The translations under genes and the position numbers were made by a program. A stretch of 8,625 nt of DNA from a virus (taxonomy: Duplodnaviria; Heunggongvirae; Uroviricota; Caudoviricetes): positions 1-8,625 of IMG/VR virus record IMGVR_UViG_2778261676_000003; one strand, 5' to 3'. The notes beneath the pieces are model-generated. The model was not told the DNA's origin. It saw only the letters and a list, made by a program, of their open reading frames with translations, and did not search any database. This document shows, piece by piece, positions 2,553-8,625 of this stretch (position 1 is its first letter; every line of letters starts with the position of its first letter).

Positions 2553-2846
2553 TTAGCTGCTGTCTTTTTTATATAGCTCTTTGAGCGTATCAAAGACAAT
2601 TTTCTTAACCATATCAGATTGTTGTTCTGCCATACGCTCTGCATCGTCAATGTAAACTGATGCAGAGTTTTGTTTATCCAATGATTCCTCAATCGCTGCA
2701 ATTATCTCTGAGTTCAGCGACCTGTTATTCATCTTCGCACGCTGCTTAATTTTCGCGTGGAGTTCATGCGGAAGTCTCAAGTGAAACTGCGCCTCGTCGT
2801 ATTTGCTGTACATCCTTGATGCCTCACCAGTTGGGTGGAATGGCAT
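2553..2846 (-). CDS. mnt: Mnt-like ribbon-helix-helix (Arc/MetJ superfamily) transcriptional repressor
   Basis: Translation contains QFHLRLPHELHAKIKQRAKMNNRSLNSEIIAAIEESL (RHH motif) and the C-terminus DAERMAEQQSDMVKKIVFDTLKELYKKDSS, closely resembling the P22 Mnt C-terminus (...DAERLADEQSELVKKMVFDTLKDLYKK..) as I recall it. AGGT ribosome-binding site 4 nt before the ATG at 2844-2846. An alternative ATG at 2811-2813 would give 86 aa. Confidence 0.85.
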   Translation of the reverse strand: MPFHPTGEASRMYSKYDEAQFHLRLPHELHAKIKQRAKMNNRSLNSEIIAAIEESLDKQNSASVYIDDAERMAEQQSDMVKKIVFDTLKELYKKDSS

Positions 2847-2934: not shown

Positions 2935-5091
2935 ATGTCAGATATCACCGCAAATGTTGTGGTAAGCATGCCTTCGCAACTCTTCACTATGGCTCGTTCT
3001 TTTAAAGCCGTAGCCAATGGCAAAATTTATATCGGTAAAATTGACACTGACCCGGTAAATCCTGAAAACCAGATTCAGGTTTATGTGGAGAACGAAGACG
3101 GCTCTCACGTTCCTGTTTCGCAACCAATCATCATTAACGCTGCTGGTTACCCGGTATATAACGGACAGATTGCCAAGTTCGTAACTGTGCAAGGCCATTC
3201 TATGGCTGTTTATGATGCATACGGTGTGCAGCAGTTCTATTTTCCTAATGTGCTGAAGTATGACCCGGATCAGTTTTCTGCAGAATGGCTTGCCAAGATG
3301 TCTGCGCCTGATTCTTATGCATTATTTGGTACATTCTCATCAATAGCAGATCTACGAGCATTTACTGCATACTCATCAGTTAAGGAAAATGGAAGAGTCT
3401 ATGTTGATTCTTATCACCTTGGAACTGGTTATGGCGGAGGATATTTCCGCTGGAATTCAACCAGCACTGATACTGATGACGGAGGCTATACCATTAACCC
3501 AACTGGCAATACTGGAACAGGACGCTGGAAACGTGAATTCGTATCTGCATATTCAGCTCGCACAGTTTCGCCTTTAGAGTTCGGTGCTAAGATGAATGAC
3601 AGCACCTTCGATAGTGCCCCAGCGATCAATGCCGCCATTTCATACCTCAATCCTTACTTTGATGCCTCATATGACTCACATCAAGGCGGGGATGTAACCA
3701 TGCCTGCCGGGATGTTTTACATCAATGACACAATATACGGTTCTCCAAATGTAAGATTGATCGGTACTGGGGGAACGACCGGATTTAGATATTCACGTGC
3801 TGGGTGCTGCATCATCATATCCATGTCAACAATGGATGCAAACAAGGTACAATATGACACTGCTCCTTATAAAATCGACGGTACTGGTAGATATACTGAC
3901 ACCTCAACAGTGGATAATGGGCTGACAATAAGCCACGGCTATTACGGACAGTATTTAGAAAACTTGGTTTTTTTGGGAAATCCAGATCAAAAAGCCAACA
4001 TTCGTATCTGGCGAGTGCCAACGTCAAAGTTAATTGGTGTGGGAACATATGGCTGTCTAACCAACTTCTGGATTAGCGGTTCTTGGGGTACGGCAGTTGA
4101 AAATTGCTTTGCTCAAGGAGCAAAATACGCAACATTTTTGACTCCTCACACCACAGCACTAAACATTGTAGGTGGGTACTTCACTGGAAACACATCGCAA
4201 ACATGGGCAATGGGTTCTGCTCAGTGGTTCCACAGGACTGCCTCTGATTCAAATCGTCCAAATATTGCTTATGTAACAACATTCCTTTATGCGCATGATT
4301 CAGTTGATATCAATATGCATGGAGTTACTTGGGAGGGTTACTATAGGGATTTTGCTTTATTCTACTGCGGTAATGTTAACGTTTTTGGTGGCTATAACGA
4401 AAACTCTGTAATCCCTAGCTCCGAGTATGGTCACACAGTCTGGGTGCACTGTGTAGCCTCTAGGATTAATGCTTATGGAGTATTTCTAAATCATGGGTAT
4501 AAGGATTTCGCCGTTCAGTCAGGAAATTTAATTGACCCATCTACCGGGGCGTTAATCCCTTCTGAAATATCTAACATAAATCTTTATGACCCAAGAGTGG
4601 ACTCGAAGTTTTTACAGATAAACAAAGATCTTGGATACGGCGAATATAGTATATTCATTAGCTGCAAGCATCCTATAACATCAGATCTTGCTGTCACACT
4701 TGCCTCATTAAGAAACTACTCGGCCCAATTTGATGGCCTGCTTGATCAATACACTATGCGGGTTCCCTCAATAACTCCAAATGGAACAACAAGCTTTAGC
4801 TTCCAAATCAGTAATATATCTAGTAATGGTGAGTATAACGTGCGCTTTTTAGCCAGAAACTCTGGCGGCACTTTACATCAGGATATTAGATTTAAAATGC
4901 TAATTGGAAGCGTGGTGTCAGTGACAGGGGTGGAAGAGCGTTCGAAAGTAGGTACTGCAAGCTTGGGCTCACCTTCGGTTAGCTTTGCTTCTGGCACGGT
5001 AACGATAACCTTTAATGGGAATTCAGGACTATATTCTTTATACCGTGTGCAATGCTTGCCTGTTAACAATCAAGTTATTTACAGTTTCTGA
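2935..5091 (+). CDS. Phage tailspike protein: P22-type N-terminal head-binding domain fused to a divergent beta-helix-like receptor-binding/depolymerase domain (718 aa)
   Basis: N-terminus [59 protein letters not shown]...[11 protein letters not shown] closely parallels the P22 gp9 head-binding domain ([43 protein letters not shown]...). GGAG ribosome-binding site 7 nt upstream of the ATG at 2935; the track's upstream start at 2887 adds 16 residues not seen in homologs. Downstream [23 protein letters not shown] resembles the entry motif of pectate-lyase-like beta-helix depolymerases. Stop TGA at 5089-5091. Confidence 0.9.
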
Positions 5092-5097
5092 ATTTAT

Positions 5098-5128
5098 CCC
5101 CCCCCCGTACCCGCGGTGGGGGGGGGGG
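5098..5128. repeat. Homopolymeric inverted repeat C9-GTACCCGCGGT-G11 between convergent stop codons
   Basis: Read directly from the sequence: C-run 5098-5106, G-run 5118-5128, with a central CCGCGG palindrome. It starts 6 nt after the tailspike stop and ends 3 nt before the acetyltransferase stop (TGATCA at 5129-5134). Confidence 0.8.
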
Positions 5129-5131
5129 TGA

Positions 5132-7024
5132 TCACAAAAGAGGGTTTTTATGATTTTTCAAGTAAATCTTAGCCAATTCTCTTGCGCCATAAACATTTAG
5201 ATGTGCATGATCCATGTAAATAAACCTTCCATTTAAATAAACCTTGCAGCCTGAATCCGTGCAAAGGATATCATTTGGGTCTATATAAACTGGTTCTTTG
5301 TAGGAATTCATGATTTCATCTAATGAAATGTTAACATTTACTTTTTTAGCAAGTTCACTGTGGTCATCATTTCCAGATGCAATGTCAGATTTAAACTTGT
5401 TGAATTCCTTATAATCCATACCATTTGGTCTAAGTATTACAATTAGTTTAGCACCATGTGATGATAGGTATTCAAGAGTGGATAAGATGTCGTAACCATC
5501 TGCCTTGAAGTAACTGTCATCATTACCCCAACTAGCCCCTACAATCACGTTTTTATAACCCCTAGCCAAATCAATCCTTTTTTTGTTATAGGATAGCTTT
5601 TCCTCGCTACGGTATTTTGAAACCTTTGTGCCCTCTCTATATGGATTTATATTCATAATTGGTGGGAGCGAGCTTGAAACAGTAACAGCGACTGATTTTC
5701 CTGCATCCTTAGCCAAATAATCAATGAACTCTATGTATGACCCTGCTATCGAATCACCGATCATTATGGTCTCTGGCTTTTTTGTTACATCTCCTATGAT
5801 GCATAAACCATCTTTAGTTAGTGAATAGCTATCATAGCACTGAGAGTATTTGACCTCAGACCTGTTCTCATTTGCAAAATCGTTATTGTTAAATCTATCT
5901 GGGAATCCTTTCTCTGAGGAAGCCCAGAGGAAAATAAGTGAGAAAATTACAAGAGGAAGAATTAATAGAAGCAAGAGCGAAGGCAAGAATCCCATCTTAA
6001 ACTTGCGCACCTTAGTTTCAAAAGCATAAAAGTTGAATATAGAGAGAGCGATTGTTAGTATCAATACCACAAATTTAACAAAAATAGTGAACTCAACACC
6101 CCTATAATTAAGTAGGGCAATTATAGGCCAATGCCACAAATACATTGAATAAGAGATTTTGCCAATGAATATAACTGGTTTTAAACTTAAAACTCTGTTA
6201 ACAATTGGTGTAAAGGATTGATTGGCTCCAGCGATTATTATTAATGCCGCACCCACGCAAGGTATCAAAGCATTATAGCCAGGGAACAAGCTTTCTTTCT
6301 CTATTGAGAAAGAGCTAAATGCAATTAATGTTATACCTAAAATAGAGAAGGCGTTTGATACTTTTGTGGATTCAAATTTGTAATTACTTAGTAATATTGA
6401 AATAACGCCACCAATCATCAACTCAAAAGCCCTGAATGGGAGCATGTAGTATGCAAGCGATGTATATATAAGTGCGCCGTATTGCGAAACAGCAAACAAA
6501 GCAATTATTATCAAAACAAAGATCTGAAGCTCATACTTTCTAAATTTCAATATCACAAATGAAATTATCAAAGGTGCAATTAGATAGTACTGTTCCTCGA
6601 CGGATAAAGACCACGTGTGAAGAAGAGGGATCTGATCGGCGTTCCCTGAGAAATAGCTTGTAGTGTTGAAGTAAAAAAGGAAATTACTGATAGAAAGAAG
6701 AGTGAATATTGCGCTTTTGATCATGTATATAAACTCATCAGGCATCAATATGAAAATTGATGCGACTAATGTTGTAAATAACACGACCAATAAAGATGGC
6801 AAAATTCTCTTGATTCTTCTGTTGTAAAACCCTGAGTATGTGAAACTTCCGTTAGAAATTTCCTTTCTTATTATGGAGGTTATTAGATACCCAGAGATTA
6901 CAAAGAAAATATCTACCCCGATAAATCCGCCCGTAATGAACTGGCTACCAACATGATAGACTATTACCAATAGAACGGCTACTGCACGCAAGCCGTCAAT
7001 GTCTGGTCTATATCTAATCTCCAT
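5132..7024 (-). CDS. Integral-membrane O-acetyltransferase, acyltransferase-3 family with a C-terminal SGNH domain (OafA/Oac-like; likely O-antigen acetylation / serotype conversion), 630 aa
   Basis: N-terminal motif RPDIDGLRAVAVLLVIVYH and multiple hydrophobic segments typical of the acyltransferase-3 fold. C-terminal GDS (IGDSIA) and DHAH blocks typical of SGNH esterase-like domains. ATG at 7022-7024 with a GGGA ribosome-binding site. The gene looks AT-rich by eye. Confidence 0.9.
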   Translation of the reverse strand: MEIRYRPDIDGLRAVAVLLVIVYHVGSQFITGGFIGVDIFFVISGYLITSIIRKEISNGSFTYSGFYNRRIKRILPSLLVVLFTTLVASIFILMPDEFIYMIKSAIFTLLSISNFLFYFNTTSYFSGNADQIPLLHTWSLSVEEQYYLIAPLIISFVILKFRKYELQIFVLIIIALFAVSQYGALIYTSLAYYMLPFRAFELMIGGVISILLSNYKFESTKVSNAFSILGITLIAFSSFSIEKESLFPGYNALIPCVGAALIIIAGANQSFTPIVNRVLSLKPVIFIGKISYSMYLWHWPIIALLNYRGVEFTIFVKFVVLILTIALSIFNFYAFETKVRKFKMGFLPSLLLLLILPLVIFSLIFLWASSEKGFPDRFNNNDFANENRSEVKYSQCYDSYSLTKDGLCIIGDVTKKPETIMIGDSIAGSYIEFIDYLAKDAGKSVAVTVSSSLPPIMNINPYREGTKVSKYRSEEKLSYNKKRIDLARGYKNVIVGASWGNDDSYFKADGYDILSTLEYLSSHGAKLIVILRPNGMDYKEFNKFKSDIASGNDDHSELAKKVNVNISLDEIMNSYKEPVYIDPNDILCTDSGCKVYLNGRFIYMDHAHLNVYGARELAKIYLKNHKNPLL

Positions 7025-7223
7025 AAGGAATCCCTTTTGCTTACCCGTTTAAAATTAATATTTCAGACGCAAAGAAGTATCTTCTTCACATGATGTTGAT
7101 TGCAAACAGTGATCAAGCCATTTCATTACGCAATTCGTCGCTCTTATGCAGTTACAGTCATCATTTTCTACCTACAAAACTAGCGAAGTTGCCAAGTGCC
7201 TGACCTGTGTGAAACGCATATAT

Positions 7224-7251
7224 GCAAACAGCAAACAGCAAACAGCAAACA
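7224..7251. repeat. Tandem heptanucleotide repeat (GCAAACA)x4
   Basis: Four perfect head-to-tail copies read directly (7224-7230, 7231-7237, 7238-7244, 7245-7251), followed by a degenerate CAGCACAG. It lies in the 443-bp intergenic region about 200 bp upstream of the acetyltransferase start and about 215 bp downstream of the integrase stop. Confidence 0.8.
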
Positions 7252-7467
7252 CAGCACAGTGTAATAATGTGTTAACTATGCCAATCGAGGTGTACTTTGC
7301 AAATAGCTTTAACATTTCTTCTATCAGCTAATAATCAAAGGCATGAAGTCTATCATCCAAATCTTAAACGATCGATACTTGCTGTGGTTGATAAGACAAA
7401 ACTGAGACAAACAAAGCTTTGCGCTGGATTGCAAGGCTTTGTGCTCTTCGATAGTGGTTAAGGTGGA

Positions 7468-8625
7468 TCACTCCACCTTTTCATCAATCCAGTCCGCCCA
7501 CCATTGCATCATTTCTCTGCGTTTATCGAGATACTGAGCATGGTTGTAAATCCCACGCACAGAACCGCCGTTGGCATGTGCCAGTTGCACTTCAATAGCA
7601 TCAGCAGGCCATTCGTGCTCGTTCATAATCGTGCTGAATTCATGCCTGAATCCGTGACCGCTTTCCAGACCCTCATAGCCGATTTGTTTGATCACAAGTA
7701 GCACCGCGTTCTCGCAGATTGGCTTTTTCTTATCGTTGCGCCCGGCAAAAACAAACTCTGATACTGGTTTAGTGATGGAGCTTAGCGTAGTGAGAAGTTC
7801 AACCACCTGGTCCGACATCGGGACCACATGAATTTTGCGTCCCTTCATCACACTGGCGTCGATGGTGATAATCCTGTTTTCAAAATCGACGTTCTTCCAT
7901 TGCATGGAACGAAGCTCTTTTGTTCTTAGGGCTGTGTAGCGTAAAACCTTGGTCGCAATGAGCGATACGATGCTTCCTGAAAATGTTGCCAGTGCTTTGT
8001 TAAATGCCGGGATCTGGTCTGCAGGAAGAAACGGGAAGTTTTTCTTGCGGTATCCCTTCATGGCGTCAGCAAGGTCAGGTGCCGGGTTATATTTAGCCCT
8101 ACCAGTGACAATGGCGTAACGGAAAACCTCGCCGCATCTTCTGCGGGCTTTGTTGGCTCGCTCCATTGCACCGCGATCTTCAAATCTGCGGATTACTTCC
8201 AGCAGTTGCATCGGCTCAATATCCTGAATCTCAAGACCGCCGATGATAGGTAAAATGTCGTCATCAAACATTTTTGCAAGTTCATTTGCATAGCCTACTG
8301 ACCAGACTTGCTTCTTGTGCTCGTACCATTCCTTGTAAATCGCACTAAAGGAATTGTTGTTAGACGAAGCCTTTTTCGCCTTTACCGGATCGATGCCGAC
8401 CGAGATGTCTTTCCTCGCAGTCCATGCTTTATCCCTTGCCTCCTGCAAAGTCATAAGCGGATATTTTCCGACGGTCAGTATTTTTTCCTTACCGTCAATC
8501 TTGTAGCGAAGCTGCCATACCTTTTTCCCGGATACAGGAACATAAAGGTACAGGCCATTACCATCGAGAAGGCGGTATGGTTTTTCTTTCGGCTTTGCTG
8601 CTTCAATCTGCTTAACGGTGAGCAT
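7468..8625 (-). CDS. intS: Tyrosine site-specific integrase with an N-terminal arm-binding (DUF4102-type) domain, P4/CP4-57/IntS family (385 aa)
   Basis: N-terminus MLTVKQIEAAKPKEKPYRLLDGNGLYLYVPVSGKKVWQLRYKIDGKEK is the characteristic arm-binding domain of P4-type integrases. C-terminal catalytic-domain residues include ...HGFRHEFST... and ...LAHANGGSVRGIYNH.... The sequence matches my recollection of E. coli K-12 IntS, so the symbol should be confirmed by BLAST. The start codon is the last three bases of the window. Confidence 0.92.
   Translation of the reverse strand: MLTVKQIEAAKPKEKPYRLLDGNGLYLYVPVSGKKVWQLRYKIDGKEKILTVGKYPLMTLQEARDKAWTARKDISVGIDPVKAKKASSNNNSFSAIYKEWYEHKKQVWSVGYANELAKMFDDDILPIIGGLEIQDIEPMQLLEVIRRFEDRGAMERANKARRRCGEVFRYAIVTGRAKYNPAPDLADAMKGYRKKNFPFLPADQIPAFNKALATFSGSIVSLIATKVLRYTALRTKELRSMQWKNVDFENRIITIDASVMKGRKIHVVPMSDQVVELLTTLSSITKPVSEFVFAGRNDKKKPICENAVLLVIKQIGYEGLESGHGFRHEFSTIMNEHEWPADAIEVQLAHANGGSVRGIYNHAQYLDKRREMMQWWADWIDEKVE

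What the first reader, a model, noticed from the sequence alone, without database searches (positions are those of the whole stretch)
5132..7467. AT-rich O-antigen acetyltransferase module convergent with the tailspike (a serotype-conversion pairing)
A 630-aa acyltransferase-3/SGNH fusion of the OafA/Oac type sits next to the integrase, as serotype-conversion genes do in P22- and Sf6-like phages. It is convergent with the tailspike and looks markedly more AT-rich than the integrase and the left part of the window, implying acquisition from a different genomic background. An O-antigen acetylase paired with an O-antigen-targeting tailspike is a typical superinfection-exclusion arrangement. The gene appears intact in an otherwise decayed prophage, suggesting selection for the host.
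Basis: partly seen in the sequence, partly recalled or inferred. Interest (0 to 1): 0.5.

Follow-up and report, generated by a model that had tools for sequence, protein, structure and literature searches.

The report
Prophage O-acetyltransferase paired with its tailspike
An intact, AT-rich membrane acetyltransferase of the kind that acetylates O-antigen sits tail-to-tail with the tailspike in an 8.9-kb E. coli prophage remnant. The two genes travel together between different phages, a textbook receptor-masking arrangement rather than a new kind of system.

Summary
Window 5132-7024 (-) encodes an intact 630-aa AT3+SGNH acyltransferase. Every residue shown essential in Salmonella OafA is present, the model is confident, and its best solved-structure match is the OafB periplasmic domain. 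It lies between the integrase and a convergent tailspike, exactly where Sf6 carries oac and BTP1 carries gtrA*-gtrC(OafB). GC is 35.7% against 45.4% for the rest of the window.

New points:
- The 443 nt upstream are not plain spacer. They hold a 47-codon gtrA remnant, so this is a decayed gtr operon like BTP1's.
- The tailspike receptor-binding part, a GC hairpin, the acetylase, its leader and the gtrA scar (about 3427-7189) form one co-inherited cassette. It occurs in P22-like, lambda-like and other backbones. Yersinia and Enterobacter keep the acetylase next to a mere tailspike stub.
- Tailspikes 64-65% identical are paired with gtrABC instead. Relatives in virulent phages have no modification gene.
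- A heptamer repeat in the gtrA scar varies from 3 to 5 copies between strains.

The function, most likely O-acetylation of the tailspike's polysaccharide receptor, is inferred and not shown. Verdict: a new member of a known kind, of moderate interest.

The parts
5132..7024 (-). AT3-SGNH fused O-acyltransferase, 630 aa, intact
   Evidence: Pfam and PHROG matches. All OafA-essential residues are present: R13, H24, G32-G33-F34-x-G36-V37-D38, R70/R73, S113, E336, S425, D605, H608. AF2 pLDDT is 90.4, and the best PDB fold match is 6SE1, the OafB SGNH domain. dN/dS is 0.08-0.21.
2935..5091 (+). Tailspike, 718 aa: P22-type head-binding domain (to about 3320) plus beta-helix receptor-binding part
   Evidence: Pfam Head_binding at aa 17-129 of the longer ORF. 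PDB sequence hits to the Sf6 and P22 tailspike N-termini only. Relatives carry precomputed PF27114/PF12708 beta-helix domains. The ORF is open in all 7 loci examined (truncated by the contig end in L176).
3427..7189 (.). Co-inherited cassette: tailspike receptor-binding part, hairpin, acetyltransferase, leader and the distal end of the gtrA remnant
   Evidence: Continuous DNA homology of 87.8% to L184 (lambda-like siphovirus backbone) over 3427-7189, and 81.7% to L011/L012 (non-E. coli host, different tailspike N-domain) over 3427-6931. The unit shares atypical codon usage.
5094..5135 (.). G/C-rich hairpin (C8...G11) between the two convergent stop codons; probable bidirectional terminator without a clear U-tract
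   Evidence: Sequence. Folding gives -32.2 kcal/mol on the + strand and -27 on the - strand, though z-scores are only -2.2 and -1.3. The terminator scan did not call it. Run lengths differ among loci. Sf6 has an annotated terminator at the same place.
7025..7171 (-). 147-nt leader between the gtrA remnant stop and the acetyltransferase ATG, with an AAGGGA Shine-Dalgarno sequence
   Evidence: It is shared with L184, and the last 65 nt or so are shared with Y. kristensenii L008. In BTP1 the equivalent region holds a second transcription start (PMC4413052).
7172..7315 (-). gtrA 5' remnant (47-codon ORF): scar of a gtr operon
   Evidence: Aligns with intact gtrA of E. coli argW prophages. The translation MLKLFAKYTSIG... 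matches GtrA. The same gtrA'::leader junction is present in L184, and a longer gtrA* (about 80 GtrA codons) precedes the homologue in E. ludwigii L177.
7224..7251 (-). Heptanucleotide repeat (TGTTTGC)x4 inside the gtrA remnant; copy number varies between strains
   Evidence: n = 3 in L003 and L004; n = 4 in the window/L002, L006, L007 and L176; n = 5 in L005. All reading frames stop 136-155 nt before the acetyltransferase ATG.
7316..7467 (-). Conserved int-gtrA boundary region with the presumed gtr promoter: -10-like TAGACT at 7352-7347, predicted +1 near 7340, single GATC at 7370-7373
   Evidence: Window 7239-7500 matches the int-gtrA junction in 858 of 5426 complete E. coli genomes. The spacing of the GATC and ATG equals the P22 gtr geometry (GATC4 at -33, start site 25 nt before the ATG; PMC2909390). 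The promoter is inferred by position only, and the consensus scan found none.
7468..8625 (-). IntS-type tyrosine integrase (argW-specific, Sf6/HK620 type)
   Evidence: Pfam; 96% DNA identity to Sf6 int; tRNA-Arg(CCT) and the Sf6 attP core lie just beyond it in L002.

Best explanation
The gene encodes an inner-membrane, two-domain O-acetyltransferase of the OafA/OafB class. By analogy with OafA/OafB, the 10-11-helix AT3 domain takes an acetyl group from cytoplasmic acetyl-CoA across the membrane. The periplasmic SGNH domain (Ser425-Asp605-His608) then transfers it to a sugar of the surface polysaccharide that the neighbouring tailspike binds and cleaves, most likely the host O-antigen.

The gene is expressed from the prophage as a lysogenic-conversion function. 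It is probably transcribed from the retained gtr promoter through the gtrA remnant, and/or from a promoter in the 147-nt leader, and is terminated at the shared GC hairpin. The resulting acetylation changes the serotype and sterically blocks depolymerisation or adsorption by tailspikes of this family. That protects the lysogen from the phage itself and from virulent phages carrying related tailspikes.

Evolutionarily the gene sits in the gtrC position of a decayed gtr operon, where gtrA is reduced to 47 codons and gtrB is gone. Together with the tailspike receptor-binding part it forms one cassette. The cassette is exchanged between phage backbones by recombination in two conserved flanks: the N-proximal tailspike segment, and the gtrA 5' end with the int-gtrA boundary.

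Shown: architecture, catalytic residues, fold, purifying selection, gene order, co-inheritance. Inferred: substrate, expression route, exclusion phenotype.
For: Domains and family.

Functional residues: all twelve mapped from OafA mutagenesis (PMC7448272) are present. All were checked in a 53-sequence alignment spanning 32-81% identity: ten are invariant, S113 is kept in 41 of 53 and D605 in 44 of 53.

Structure: the model has pLDDT 90.4, with 11 long helices followed by an alpha/beta domain. The best solved-structure match is 6SE1, the periplasmic domain of the S. Paratyphi A LPS acetyltransferase (E 9e-7).

Selection: dN/dS is 0.08-0.21.

Gene order: identical to Sf6 (tailspike, terminator, oac, promoter, int) and to BTP1 (int, gtrA*, gtrC, convergent tailspike). 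For both phages, acetylation has been shown to block the phage's own tailspike (PMC4413052, PMC9558356).

Co-inheritance: wherever a homologue of at least 70% identity has downstream sequence, the homologous tailspike or its 3' stub follows. This holds for L176, L011/L012, L184, L008/L009 and L177/L178.

Reciprocal test: tailspikes 64-65% identical sit in the same two backbones but are paired with gtrABC (L179, L186). Relatives 71-77% identical in T7-like and SU10-like virulent phages have no modification gene.

gtrA remnant and shared junction.
Against: - No biochemical or phenotypic data exist. The acceptor sugar and even the polymer (O-antigen or capsule/EPS) are unknown.
- The host O-serogroup could not be determined with these tools.
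- The periplasmic domain is too diverged from OafA/OafB to align by sequence, so acceptor specificity cannot be transferred.
- No sigma-70 consensus promoter was found upstream, so expression is inferred.
- Tight linkage with the tailspike 3' end could partly be physical hitch-hiking of adjacent DNA.
- The hairpin lacks a U-tract, and its folding z-scores are modest.
Confidence: 0.75

Rival explanations
1. Same enzyme class, but the acceptor is a capsular or exopolysaccharide (K antigen, colanic-acid-like EPS) rather than O-antigen, with a tailspike that is a capsule depolymerase. This would resemble the CUS-3 pair of neuO and endosialidase in the same genomic slot.
For: CUS-3 carries a capsule O-acetyltransferase between its tailspike and int, at the same position (PMC3046976). 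The N-proximal tailspike region matches a PHROG named for colanic-acid degradation, and the PDB entry 6TGF 'exopolysaccharide biosynthesis protein' over aa 23-306. AT3 proteins acetylate many glycans (PMC9558356).
Against: Those tailspike matches cover only the N-terminal 300 residues, not the specificity-determining beta-helix. The related tailspikes are paired with gtrABC, which is an O-antigen glucosylation system. Characterised AT3-SGNH proteins in enterobacterial P22-like prophages act on O-antigen.
Confidence: 0.15
2. The acetyltransferase is kept mainly for host benefit (antigenic change, serum or immune evasion). Its association with the tailspike is only physical hitch-hiking of neighbouring DNA, not functional matching.
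For: Y. kristensenii and E. ludwigii keep an intact, purifying-selected gene with only a tailspike stub. In Yersinia it sits on a P4-like satellite with no tailspike of its own. The C-terminal third of the tailspike, which is physically nearest the gene, shows the tightest co-conservation.
Against: The whole receptor-binding part (aa 181-718), not only the adjacent end, is 87-98% conserved in every acetylase-linked copy across three backbones. Copies linked to gtrABC or found in virulent phages diverge to 47-68% over the C-terminal third (aa 481-718), although the virulent-phage copies stay 82-93% over aa 181-480. The two alternative cassettes each recur in two unrelated backbones. Host benefit and phage exclusion are not mutually exclusive.
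Confidence: 0.2
3. The gene is an unexpressed relic in this remnant prophage. Its integrity only reflects the recent date of the deletion.
For: The remnant is 98-99.6% identical to apparently longer, less deleted prophages carrying the same gene. Other genes in the remnant are also intact. No consensus promoter was detected.
Against: dN/dS is far below 1 across lineages. The gene is retained elsewhere after loss of the tailspike. The identical protein was found on 24 contigs read, with 27 index blocks listing it, in several prophage states. In BTP1 the analogous gtrA*-gtrC locus is constitutively transcribed from two start sites (PMC4413052).
Confidence: 0.05

Closest known systems
BTP1 gtrA*-gtrC (OafB, 'family 2 GtrC') of Salmonella Typhimurium ST313 (PMC4413052; PMC7448272)
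   Same: - P22-like prophage with the order int, truncated gtrA, AT3-SGNH gene of about 630-640 aa, convergent tailspike.
- gtrB has been lost.
- RXXR, the TMH1 His and the Ser/Asp/His triad are present.
- The best structural match of the periplasmic domain is OafB.
- It lacks the full Dam/OxyR phase-variation signature, as BTP1 does.
   Different: - Only 35% identity, confined to the AT3 half; the periplasmic domain is not alignable by BLASTP.
- The host is E. coli, the integration site is argW with an Sf6/HK620-type integrase, and attP lies on the other side of int.
- The tailspike receptor-binding part is unrelated.
- The gtrA remnant is shorter (47 against 92 codons) and carries a variable heptamer repeat.
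Shigella phage Sf6 oac (gene 15)
   Same: Same phage lineage: int is 96% identical at the DNA level. Same slot and orientation (tailspike, terminator, oac, promoter, int) and the same argW attP core. Sf6 is the paradigm of O-acetylation blocking the phage's own endorhamnosidase (PMC9558356).
   Different: Sf6 Oac is an AT3-only protein of 333 aa with no SGNH domain. It is alignable over only about 80 residues. It has no gtrA remnant.
Salmonella OafA (abequose O-acetyltransferase)
   Same: Same AT3-SGNH architecture. Every residue whose mutation abolishes or strongly reduces OafA activity is present.
   Different: OafA is a chromosomal gene, not prophage- or tailspike-linked. There is no detectable sequence match to the solved periplasmic domains by phmmer.
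gtrABC glucosylation cassettes of P22-like and lambda-like prophages (PMC2629481; PMC2909390)
   Same: They occupy the same slot. The window keeps their 5' end (promoter region plus gtrA start). Sister tailspikes (64-65% identical) are paired with gtrABC in the same two backbones. Their mobility between phage types is already documented.
   Different: The chemistry is acetylation, not glucosylation. GtrA and GtrB are dispensable here and have decayed. Only one of the four GATC sites of the phase-variation switch remains.
CUS-3 neuO (K1 capsule O-acetyltransferase)
   Same: Same slot between tailspike and int in a related argW phage. It is a receptor-modifying acetyltransferase matched to the tailspike's substrate, and heptanucleotide repeats occur at the locus.
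   Different: NeuO is a soluble hexapeptide-repeat enzyme. Its repeats lie inside its own coding sequence and gate translation (PMC3046976). Here the repeats are in an upstream pseudogene remnant, with no frame-dependent link to the acetylase ORF.

Membership tests
AT3-SGNH fused carbohydrate O-acetyltransferases (OafA/OafB class) | N-terminal Acyl_transf_3 (PF01757) membrane domain fused to a C-terminal SGNH domain (PF19040) | tested here: met
   E 5e-32 (aa 8-329) and 2e-29 (aa 400-622), both above the curated cut-offs.
AT3-SGNH fused carbohydrate O-acetyltransferases (OafA/OafB class) | TMH1 Arg and His; RXXR in TMH3; the GG-F/Y-xGV-D motif specific to fused proteins; conserved Glu after TMH10 | tested here: met
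   R13, H24, G32-G33-F34-I-G36-V37-D38, R70-I-K-R73 and E336. All are invariant in 53 homologues except F34, which is F or Y.
AT3-SGNH fused carbohydrate O-acetyltransferases (OafA/OafB class) | SGNH catalytic triad: block I GDS Ser, and block V DxxH Asp and His | tested here: met
   G423-D424-S425 and H608 are invariant. D605 is conserved in 44 of 53 sequences.
AT3-SGNH fused carbohydrate O-acetyltransferases (OafA/OafB class) | Periplasmic domain with the OafB-like extended SGNH fold | tested here: met
   AF2 model with pLDDT 90.4. The top Foldseek PDB hit is 6SE1 (E 8.9e-7, TM 0.62 on the target), followed by PatB and a GDSL esterase.
AT3-SGNH fused carbohydrate O-acetyltransferases (OafA/OafB class) | Transfers acetyl groups to O-antigen sugars | not testable with these tools
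   Needs LPS chemistry on deletion and complemented strains.
Sf6 Oac-type (AT3-only) O-antigen acetylases | Single AT3 domain of about 330 aa with no periplasmic SGNH domain | tested here: not met
   The protein is 630 aa with an SGNH domain. BLASTP to Sf6 Oac aligns only 80 residues (38% identity, E 3e-7).
Degenerate 'family 2' gtr operon (gtrA*-[gtrB lost]-AT3-SGNH gtrC) as in BTP1 | Truncated gtrA directly upstream and gtrB absent, with the acetyltransferase in the gtrC position, convergent with the tailspike | tested here: met
   The gtrA remnant at 7172-7315 aligns with intact gtrA. There is no gtrB. The layout compares directly with BTP1.
Degenerate 'family 2' gtr operon (gtrA*-[gtrB lost]-AT3-SGNH gtrC) as in BTP1 | Orthology of the acetyltransferase with Salmonella family 2 GtrC/OafB | tested here: inconclusive
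   35% identity over 441 aa (E 4e-70), with the periplasmic domain unaligned. This shows a homologous AT3 half but not clear orthology.
Phase-variable gtr promoters (Dam/OxyR switch) | Four GATC sites in two pairs, overlapped by OxyR half-sites, within about 115 bp upstream of the start site | tested here: not met
   There is only one GATC (7370-7373, at the position of GATC4) in the 152-nt int-gtrA' spacer. The next GATC overlaps the int stop codon.
Prophage lysogenic-conversion / receptor-masking superinfection exclusion | Encoded in the moron slot between the tailspike and int/att of a temperate phage, and linked to the cognate receptor-binding protein | tested here: met
   It is absent next to related tailspikes in virulent phages.
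Prophage lysogenic-conversion / receptor-masking superinfection exclusion | Expression in the lysogen blocks adsorption or cleavage by the cognate tailspike | not testable with these tools
   Requires phage plating, adsorption and tailspike digestion assays.

The most novel reading that the evidence does not exclude
The 3.8-kb unit (tailspike receptor-binding part, hairpin, acetyltransferase, leader, gtrA scar) may be a self-contained 'key plus lock-changer' exchange cassette. It would move by homologous recombination between podovirus, siphovirus and satellite backbones, with a sister cassette that pairs a diverged tailspike with gtrABC. In addition, the strain-variable heptanucleotide repeat in the transcribed gtrA scar could tune or phase-vary acetylase expression by slipped-strand mispairing. 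That would be a mechanism distinct both from the Dam/OxyR switch of gtr operons and from the in-frame repeats of neuO.
Probability: 0.12. Interest if true: 0.6.

Novelty: new member of a known kind. Interest (0 to 1): 0.38.

Why it matters
This acetylase is found in no complete E. coli genome and no sequenced phage searched here, so it predicts an uncharted O-acetyl modification. That modification would alter serotyping, vaccine and antibody epitopes, and phage susceptibility in the strains that carry it. The comparative data give unusually clean natural evidence that a receptor-binding domain and the gene that masks its receptor are inherited as one unit across unrelated phage backbones, with acetylation and glucosylation as alternative partners for sister tailspikes. 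This is useful for predicting host range and resistance in phage therapy. It also suggests reading prophage remnants as retained serotype-conversion genes rather than junk.

Tried and rejected
- Close relatives by DNA search: megablast and blastn of the acetylase and of the tailspike receptor-binding part against 50,697 phage records and 5,426 complete E. coli genomes gave nothing. The only matches were the int-gtrA boundary and one 160-nt weak hit.
- phmmer of the acetylase against PDB sequences found no hit. The relationship to OafB appeared only through fold comparison.
- The scan of one genome per species gave only relatives at or below 37% identity, mostly low-GC Flavobacteriaceae. This is too distant to name a donor, so I do not claim a Bacteroidota origin.
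- The viral-contig scan found only 30%-identical relatives. The metagenome scan added one 70% copy that gave no downstream context (tblastn).
- I tested whether the heptamer copy number changes where the gtrA' ORF ends relative to the acetylase start, which could imply translational coupling or an N-terminal extension. All frames stop within a 20-nt window 136-155 nt upstream, and an in-frame TAA lies 10 codons before the ATG. A frame-dependent switch is therefore not supported.
- A role for the repeats as a promoter spacer was considered by eye and rejected for lack of -35/-10 matches. This is inference; the scan found no site.
- I looked for the Dam/OxyR gtr phase-variation signature and it was not met.
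- L003, L004 and L006 list no tailspike gene, which might have meant a pseudogene, but the ORF is open in all three.
- I tried to identify the host of L011 by megablast against E. coli and found no match. It is therefore not E. coli, but the genus remains unknown.
- The host O-serogroup could not be determined with the tools available.
Full report
**1. What is there**

The window is a Sf6/HK620-like (Lederbergvirus) prophage remnant. Its genes, left to right, are:

- a xis-like gene (1-201, -);
- two small early-left genes, including DUF4752 (767-1048, -);
- a 5'-truncated DUF551 gene (1045-1260, -);
- the C-terminal 387 codons of the gp16 injection protein (1300-2463, +);
- mnt (2553-2846, -);
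- the tailspike (2935-5091, +);
- a 630-aa acyltransferase (5132-7024, -);
- an IntS-type integrase (7468-8625, -).

The window is 100% identical to part of an E. coli contig (L002; chromosomal flank 99.9% identical to E. coli). In that contig the element is bounded by the 16-bp Sf6 attP core. One copy lies at the 3' end of tRNA-Arg(CCT), i.e. argW, and the other lies 74 nt beyond the xis end. The whole prophage is therefore about 8.9 kb. A deletion joined mid-gp16 to the early-left region at about window 1200. In Sf6-type phages attP lies upstream of int. This is why int and the conversion gene are neighbours in the prophage as well as in the phage.

**2. The observation**

The finding is correct as stated.

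- The ORF has Pfam Acyl_transf_3 and SGNH-fused-to-AT3 domains. It matches PHROG 6705 'O-antigen acetylase' end to end (E 5e-154).
- It is convergent with the tailspike. The stop codons are 40 nt apart and are separated by a C8...G11 hairpin.
- GC is 0.357, against 0.454 for the rest of the window and 0.477 for int. GC3 is 0.360 against 0.528 for int.
- Synonymous usage is extreme: no CTG among Leu codons, ATA at 39% of Ile codons, and AGR at 86% of Arg codons. The bias is therefore not only due to hydrophobic amino acids.
- Homologues are equally AT-rich (0.335-0.362) in Yersinia, Enterobacter and an unidentified host.
- The tailspike receptor-binding part shares the odd codon usage (GC3 0.368; ATA/Ile 0.33; CTG/Leu 0.06).

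**3. Is the enzyme intact?**

Pearson et al. (PMC7448272) identified the residues whose mutation abolishes or strongly reduces OafA activity: R14, H25, F35, D39, R69, R72, S112, E325, S412, D587 and H590. G34A gave no detectable protein. The window protein has the equivalents: R13, H24, G33, F34, D38, R70, R73, S113, E336, S425, D605 and H608. Most are invariant in a 53-member alignment spanning 32-81% identity.

An AlphaFold model built on that alignment is confident (pLDDT 90.4, pTM 0.85). It shows eleven long helices followed by an alpha/beta domain. Its best match among solved structures is 6SE1, the periplasmic domain of the S. Paratyphi A LPS acetyltransferase OafB, followed by PatB and GDSL esterases.

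Pairwise dN/dS with homologues is 0.08-0.21.

**4. The upstream 443 nt**

Window 7239-7500 matches the int-gtrA junction of argW prophages in 858 of 5,426 complete E. coli genomes. Reading the minus strand, an ATG at 7315 opens a 47-codon ORF, MLKLFAKYTSIG..., which is the 5' end of gtrA. Homology to gtrA stops near 7170. A 147-nt leader follows, and then the acetyltransferase ATG with an AAGGGA ribosome-binding site.

The locus is therefore a decayed gtr operon with an acetyltransferase in the gtrC position. This is the arrangement Kintz et al. described for BTP1: gtrA* with a premature stop, gtrB deleted, gtrC an AT3-SGNH acetylase, and a convergent tailspike (PMC4413052; layout).

The single GATC (7370-7373) lies 58 nt before the gtrA' ATG. 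That is exactly where GATC4 (-33) and the start site (25 nt before the ATG) of the P22 gtr promoter would place it (PMC2909390). A TAGACT -10-like hexamer sits at 7352-7347. The other three GATCs of the Dam/OxyR switch are missing. I infer a retained but not phase-variable gtr promoter, as in BTP1. This is positional inference only, because the consensus scan found no promoter.

**5. Relatives and context**

The exact protein was found on 24 contigs read (27 index blocks list it), in draft E. coli assemblies. These are argW prophages in several states: apparently longer, less deleted prophages (complete over the 10-kb flank retrieved), truncated ones, and the 8.9-kb remnant. The gene is absent from all 5,426 complete E. 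coli genomes and all 50,697 phage records. In a database of 5.8 billion proteins, only a handful exceed 45% identity.

In every relative of at least 70% identity with downstream sequence, the homologous tailspike follows convergently:

| Locus | Acetylase identity | Tailspike or context |
|---|---|---|
| L176 | 98% | tailspike 98% |
| L184 | 93% | lambda-like siphovirus backbone; tailspike has a different N-terminal adaptor (PF18668); DNA 87.8% identical over window 3427-7189 |
| L011/L012 | 82% | host is not E. coli; tailspike receptor part 89% identical; DNA 81.7% over 3427-6931 |
| L008/L009 (Y. kristensenii) | 81% | only the last 77 tailspike codons remain; the gene abuts the integrase of a P4-like satellite |
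| L177/L178 (E. ludwigii) | 70% | a 108-codon tailspike stub |

L184 shares the same gtrA'::leader junction as the window. E. ludwigii has a longer gtrA* (about 80 GtrA codons) directly upstream. The gtrA*-acetylase fusion therefore predates the spread of this clade.

**6. The reciprocal test**

The tailspike receptor-binding part has only 37 relatives in the protein database.

- Those 64-65% identical occur in the same two backbones: P22-like at argW (L179) and the L184-like siphovirus (L186). Both are followed by gtrC-gtrB-gtrA instead of the acetylase.
- Those 71-77% identical occur in a T7-like phage (L182) and an SU10-like phage (L183), neither with an adjacent modification gene. A 72% relative (L185, siphovirus-like contig) also has none within 5 kb.
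- Along the tailspike, acetylase-linked copies stay 87-98% identical from residue 181 to the end. Copies linked to gtrABC or found in virulent phages fall to 47-68% in the C-terminal third. All share a 90-93% identical segment at residues 181-240.

I interpret the N-proximal tailspike segment on one side, and the gtrA 5' end with the int-gtrA boundary on the other, as the homology arms through which the cassette is swapped. This is inference. Mobility of gtrABC between phage types is already documented (PMC2629481).

**7. Mechanism proposed**

By analogy with OafA/OafB, the AT3 domain would pass an acetyl group from cytoplasmic acetyl-CoA across the membrane. The SGNH domain would then transfer it to the polysaccharide that the tailspike recognises. 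By analogy with Sf6 Oac and BTP1 GtrC, this changes the serotype and blocks the tailspike. That protects lysogens from the same phage and from virulent phages with related tailspikes.

O-antigen is the most likely substrate, given the gtr ancestry and the gtrABC-paired sister tailspikes. A capsule or EPS target is not excluded.

The claim of selection for the host rests on three results:
- dN/dS well below 1;
- the Yersinia and Enterobacter loci that kept the acetylase after losing the tailspike;
- persistence of the gene in the remnant.

It does not rest on integrity in this window alone, because the neighbouring genes are intact too.

**8. Comparison, novelty and verdict**

It works like BTP1 GtrC/OafB and Sf6 Oac, and it meets the defining features of the AT3-SGNH O-acetyltransferase class. 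It is not an Sf6-Oac-type protein. Orthology with OafB is not established: identity is 35% and confined to the AT3 half.

It is a new, rare member of a well-known kind of lysogenic-conversion module. The added value lies in three things:
- recognition of the gtrA scar;
- the clean evidence for a co-inherited cassette of tailspike and modification gene, with an alternative gtrABC partner;
- the variable heptamer repeat.

Interest is 0.38.

Noticed in passing
window 7224-7251 (minus-strand reading); L003/L004/L005 equivalents: A heptanucleotide repeat (TGTTTGC)n lies inside the gtrA remnant. It has 4 copies here, 3 in L003 and L004, and 5 in L005, in loci that are otherwise 98-100% identical. 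With two copies the remnant reads in the native GtrA frame, suggesting the run expanded from two copies; intact gtrA alleles examined have no perfect repeat there. All reading frames terminate 136-155 nt before the acetylase ATG, so any regulatory role is unproven.
   Followed up: partly
window 5094-5135: A C8...G11 hairpin sits between the convergent stop codons (-32 and -27 kcal/mol on the two strands). It has no U-tract and was not called by the terminator scan. The homopolymer lengths differ among loci (C9/G10, C9/G8), which may be real slippage or assembly noise.
   Followed up: partly
window ~1200 (junction), 1045-1260 and 1300-2463: This is the deletion junction of the prophage remnant. 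The C-terminal part of the gp16 injection protein is fused back-to-back to a 5'-truncated DUF551 gene, removing the immunity, replication, lysis and head genes. Apparently longer, less deleted relatives (L003, L007) align only from window 1200 rightwards.
   Followed up: partly
L002 8224 and 17098 (flanking the window): Exact copies of the 16-bp Sf6 attP core CTGCAGGGGACACCAT lie at the 3' end of tRNA-Arg(CCT) and just beyond the xis-like gene. The att-bounded remnant is therefore about 8.9 kb and still has intact int and xis-like genes, so it might still be excisable.
   Followed up: partly
L008 1-12564 (Yersinia kristensenii GCA_001091065.1): An 81%-identical acetylase with a 77-codon tailspike stub sits beside the integrase of a P4-like satellite (Phage_GPO_N (PF05929) and Phage_cap_P2 (PF05125) capsid-related genes, AlpA, primase, Ogr/Delta). 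A phage-satellite appears to have captured a serotype-conversion gene from a tailspike-bearing phage.
   Followed up: no
L179 and L005 (E. coli argW prophages): Two prophages are truncated at the same host junction (GntP permease next to a shortened injection-translocase gene). They carry different cassettes, tailspike B with gtrABC against tailspike A with the acetylase. This suggests cassette replacement within an already defective prophage, or shared ancestry of the truncation.
   Followed up: no
L006 (GCA_021723195.1) 8978-10001: The same acetylase-tailspike prophage lies next to dacD-sbmC-yeeA-yeeX and CP4-44-like genes. Only the last 60 nt or so of int are left, which indicates a rearrangement or a second insertion context.
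   Followed up: no
window 2553-2846: An intact Mnt repressor gene (Arc/Mnt domains) is retained in the remnant without arc or ant. In complete relatives an HNH gene or ant/arc lie between mnt and the tailspike.
   Followed up: no
L177 13640-14937 (Enterobacter ludwigii): A separate gtrA-gtrB pair lies 1.7 kb beyond the acetylase and tailspike stub, on the opposite strand. This locus therefore holds remnants of two modification systems.
   Followed up: no
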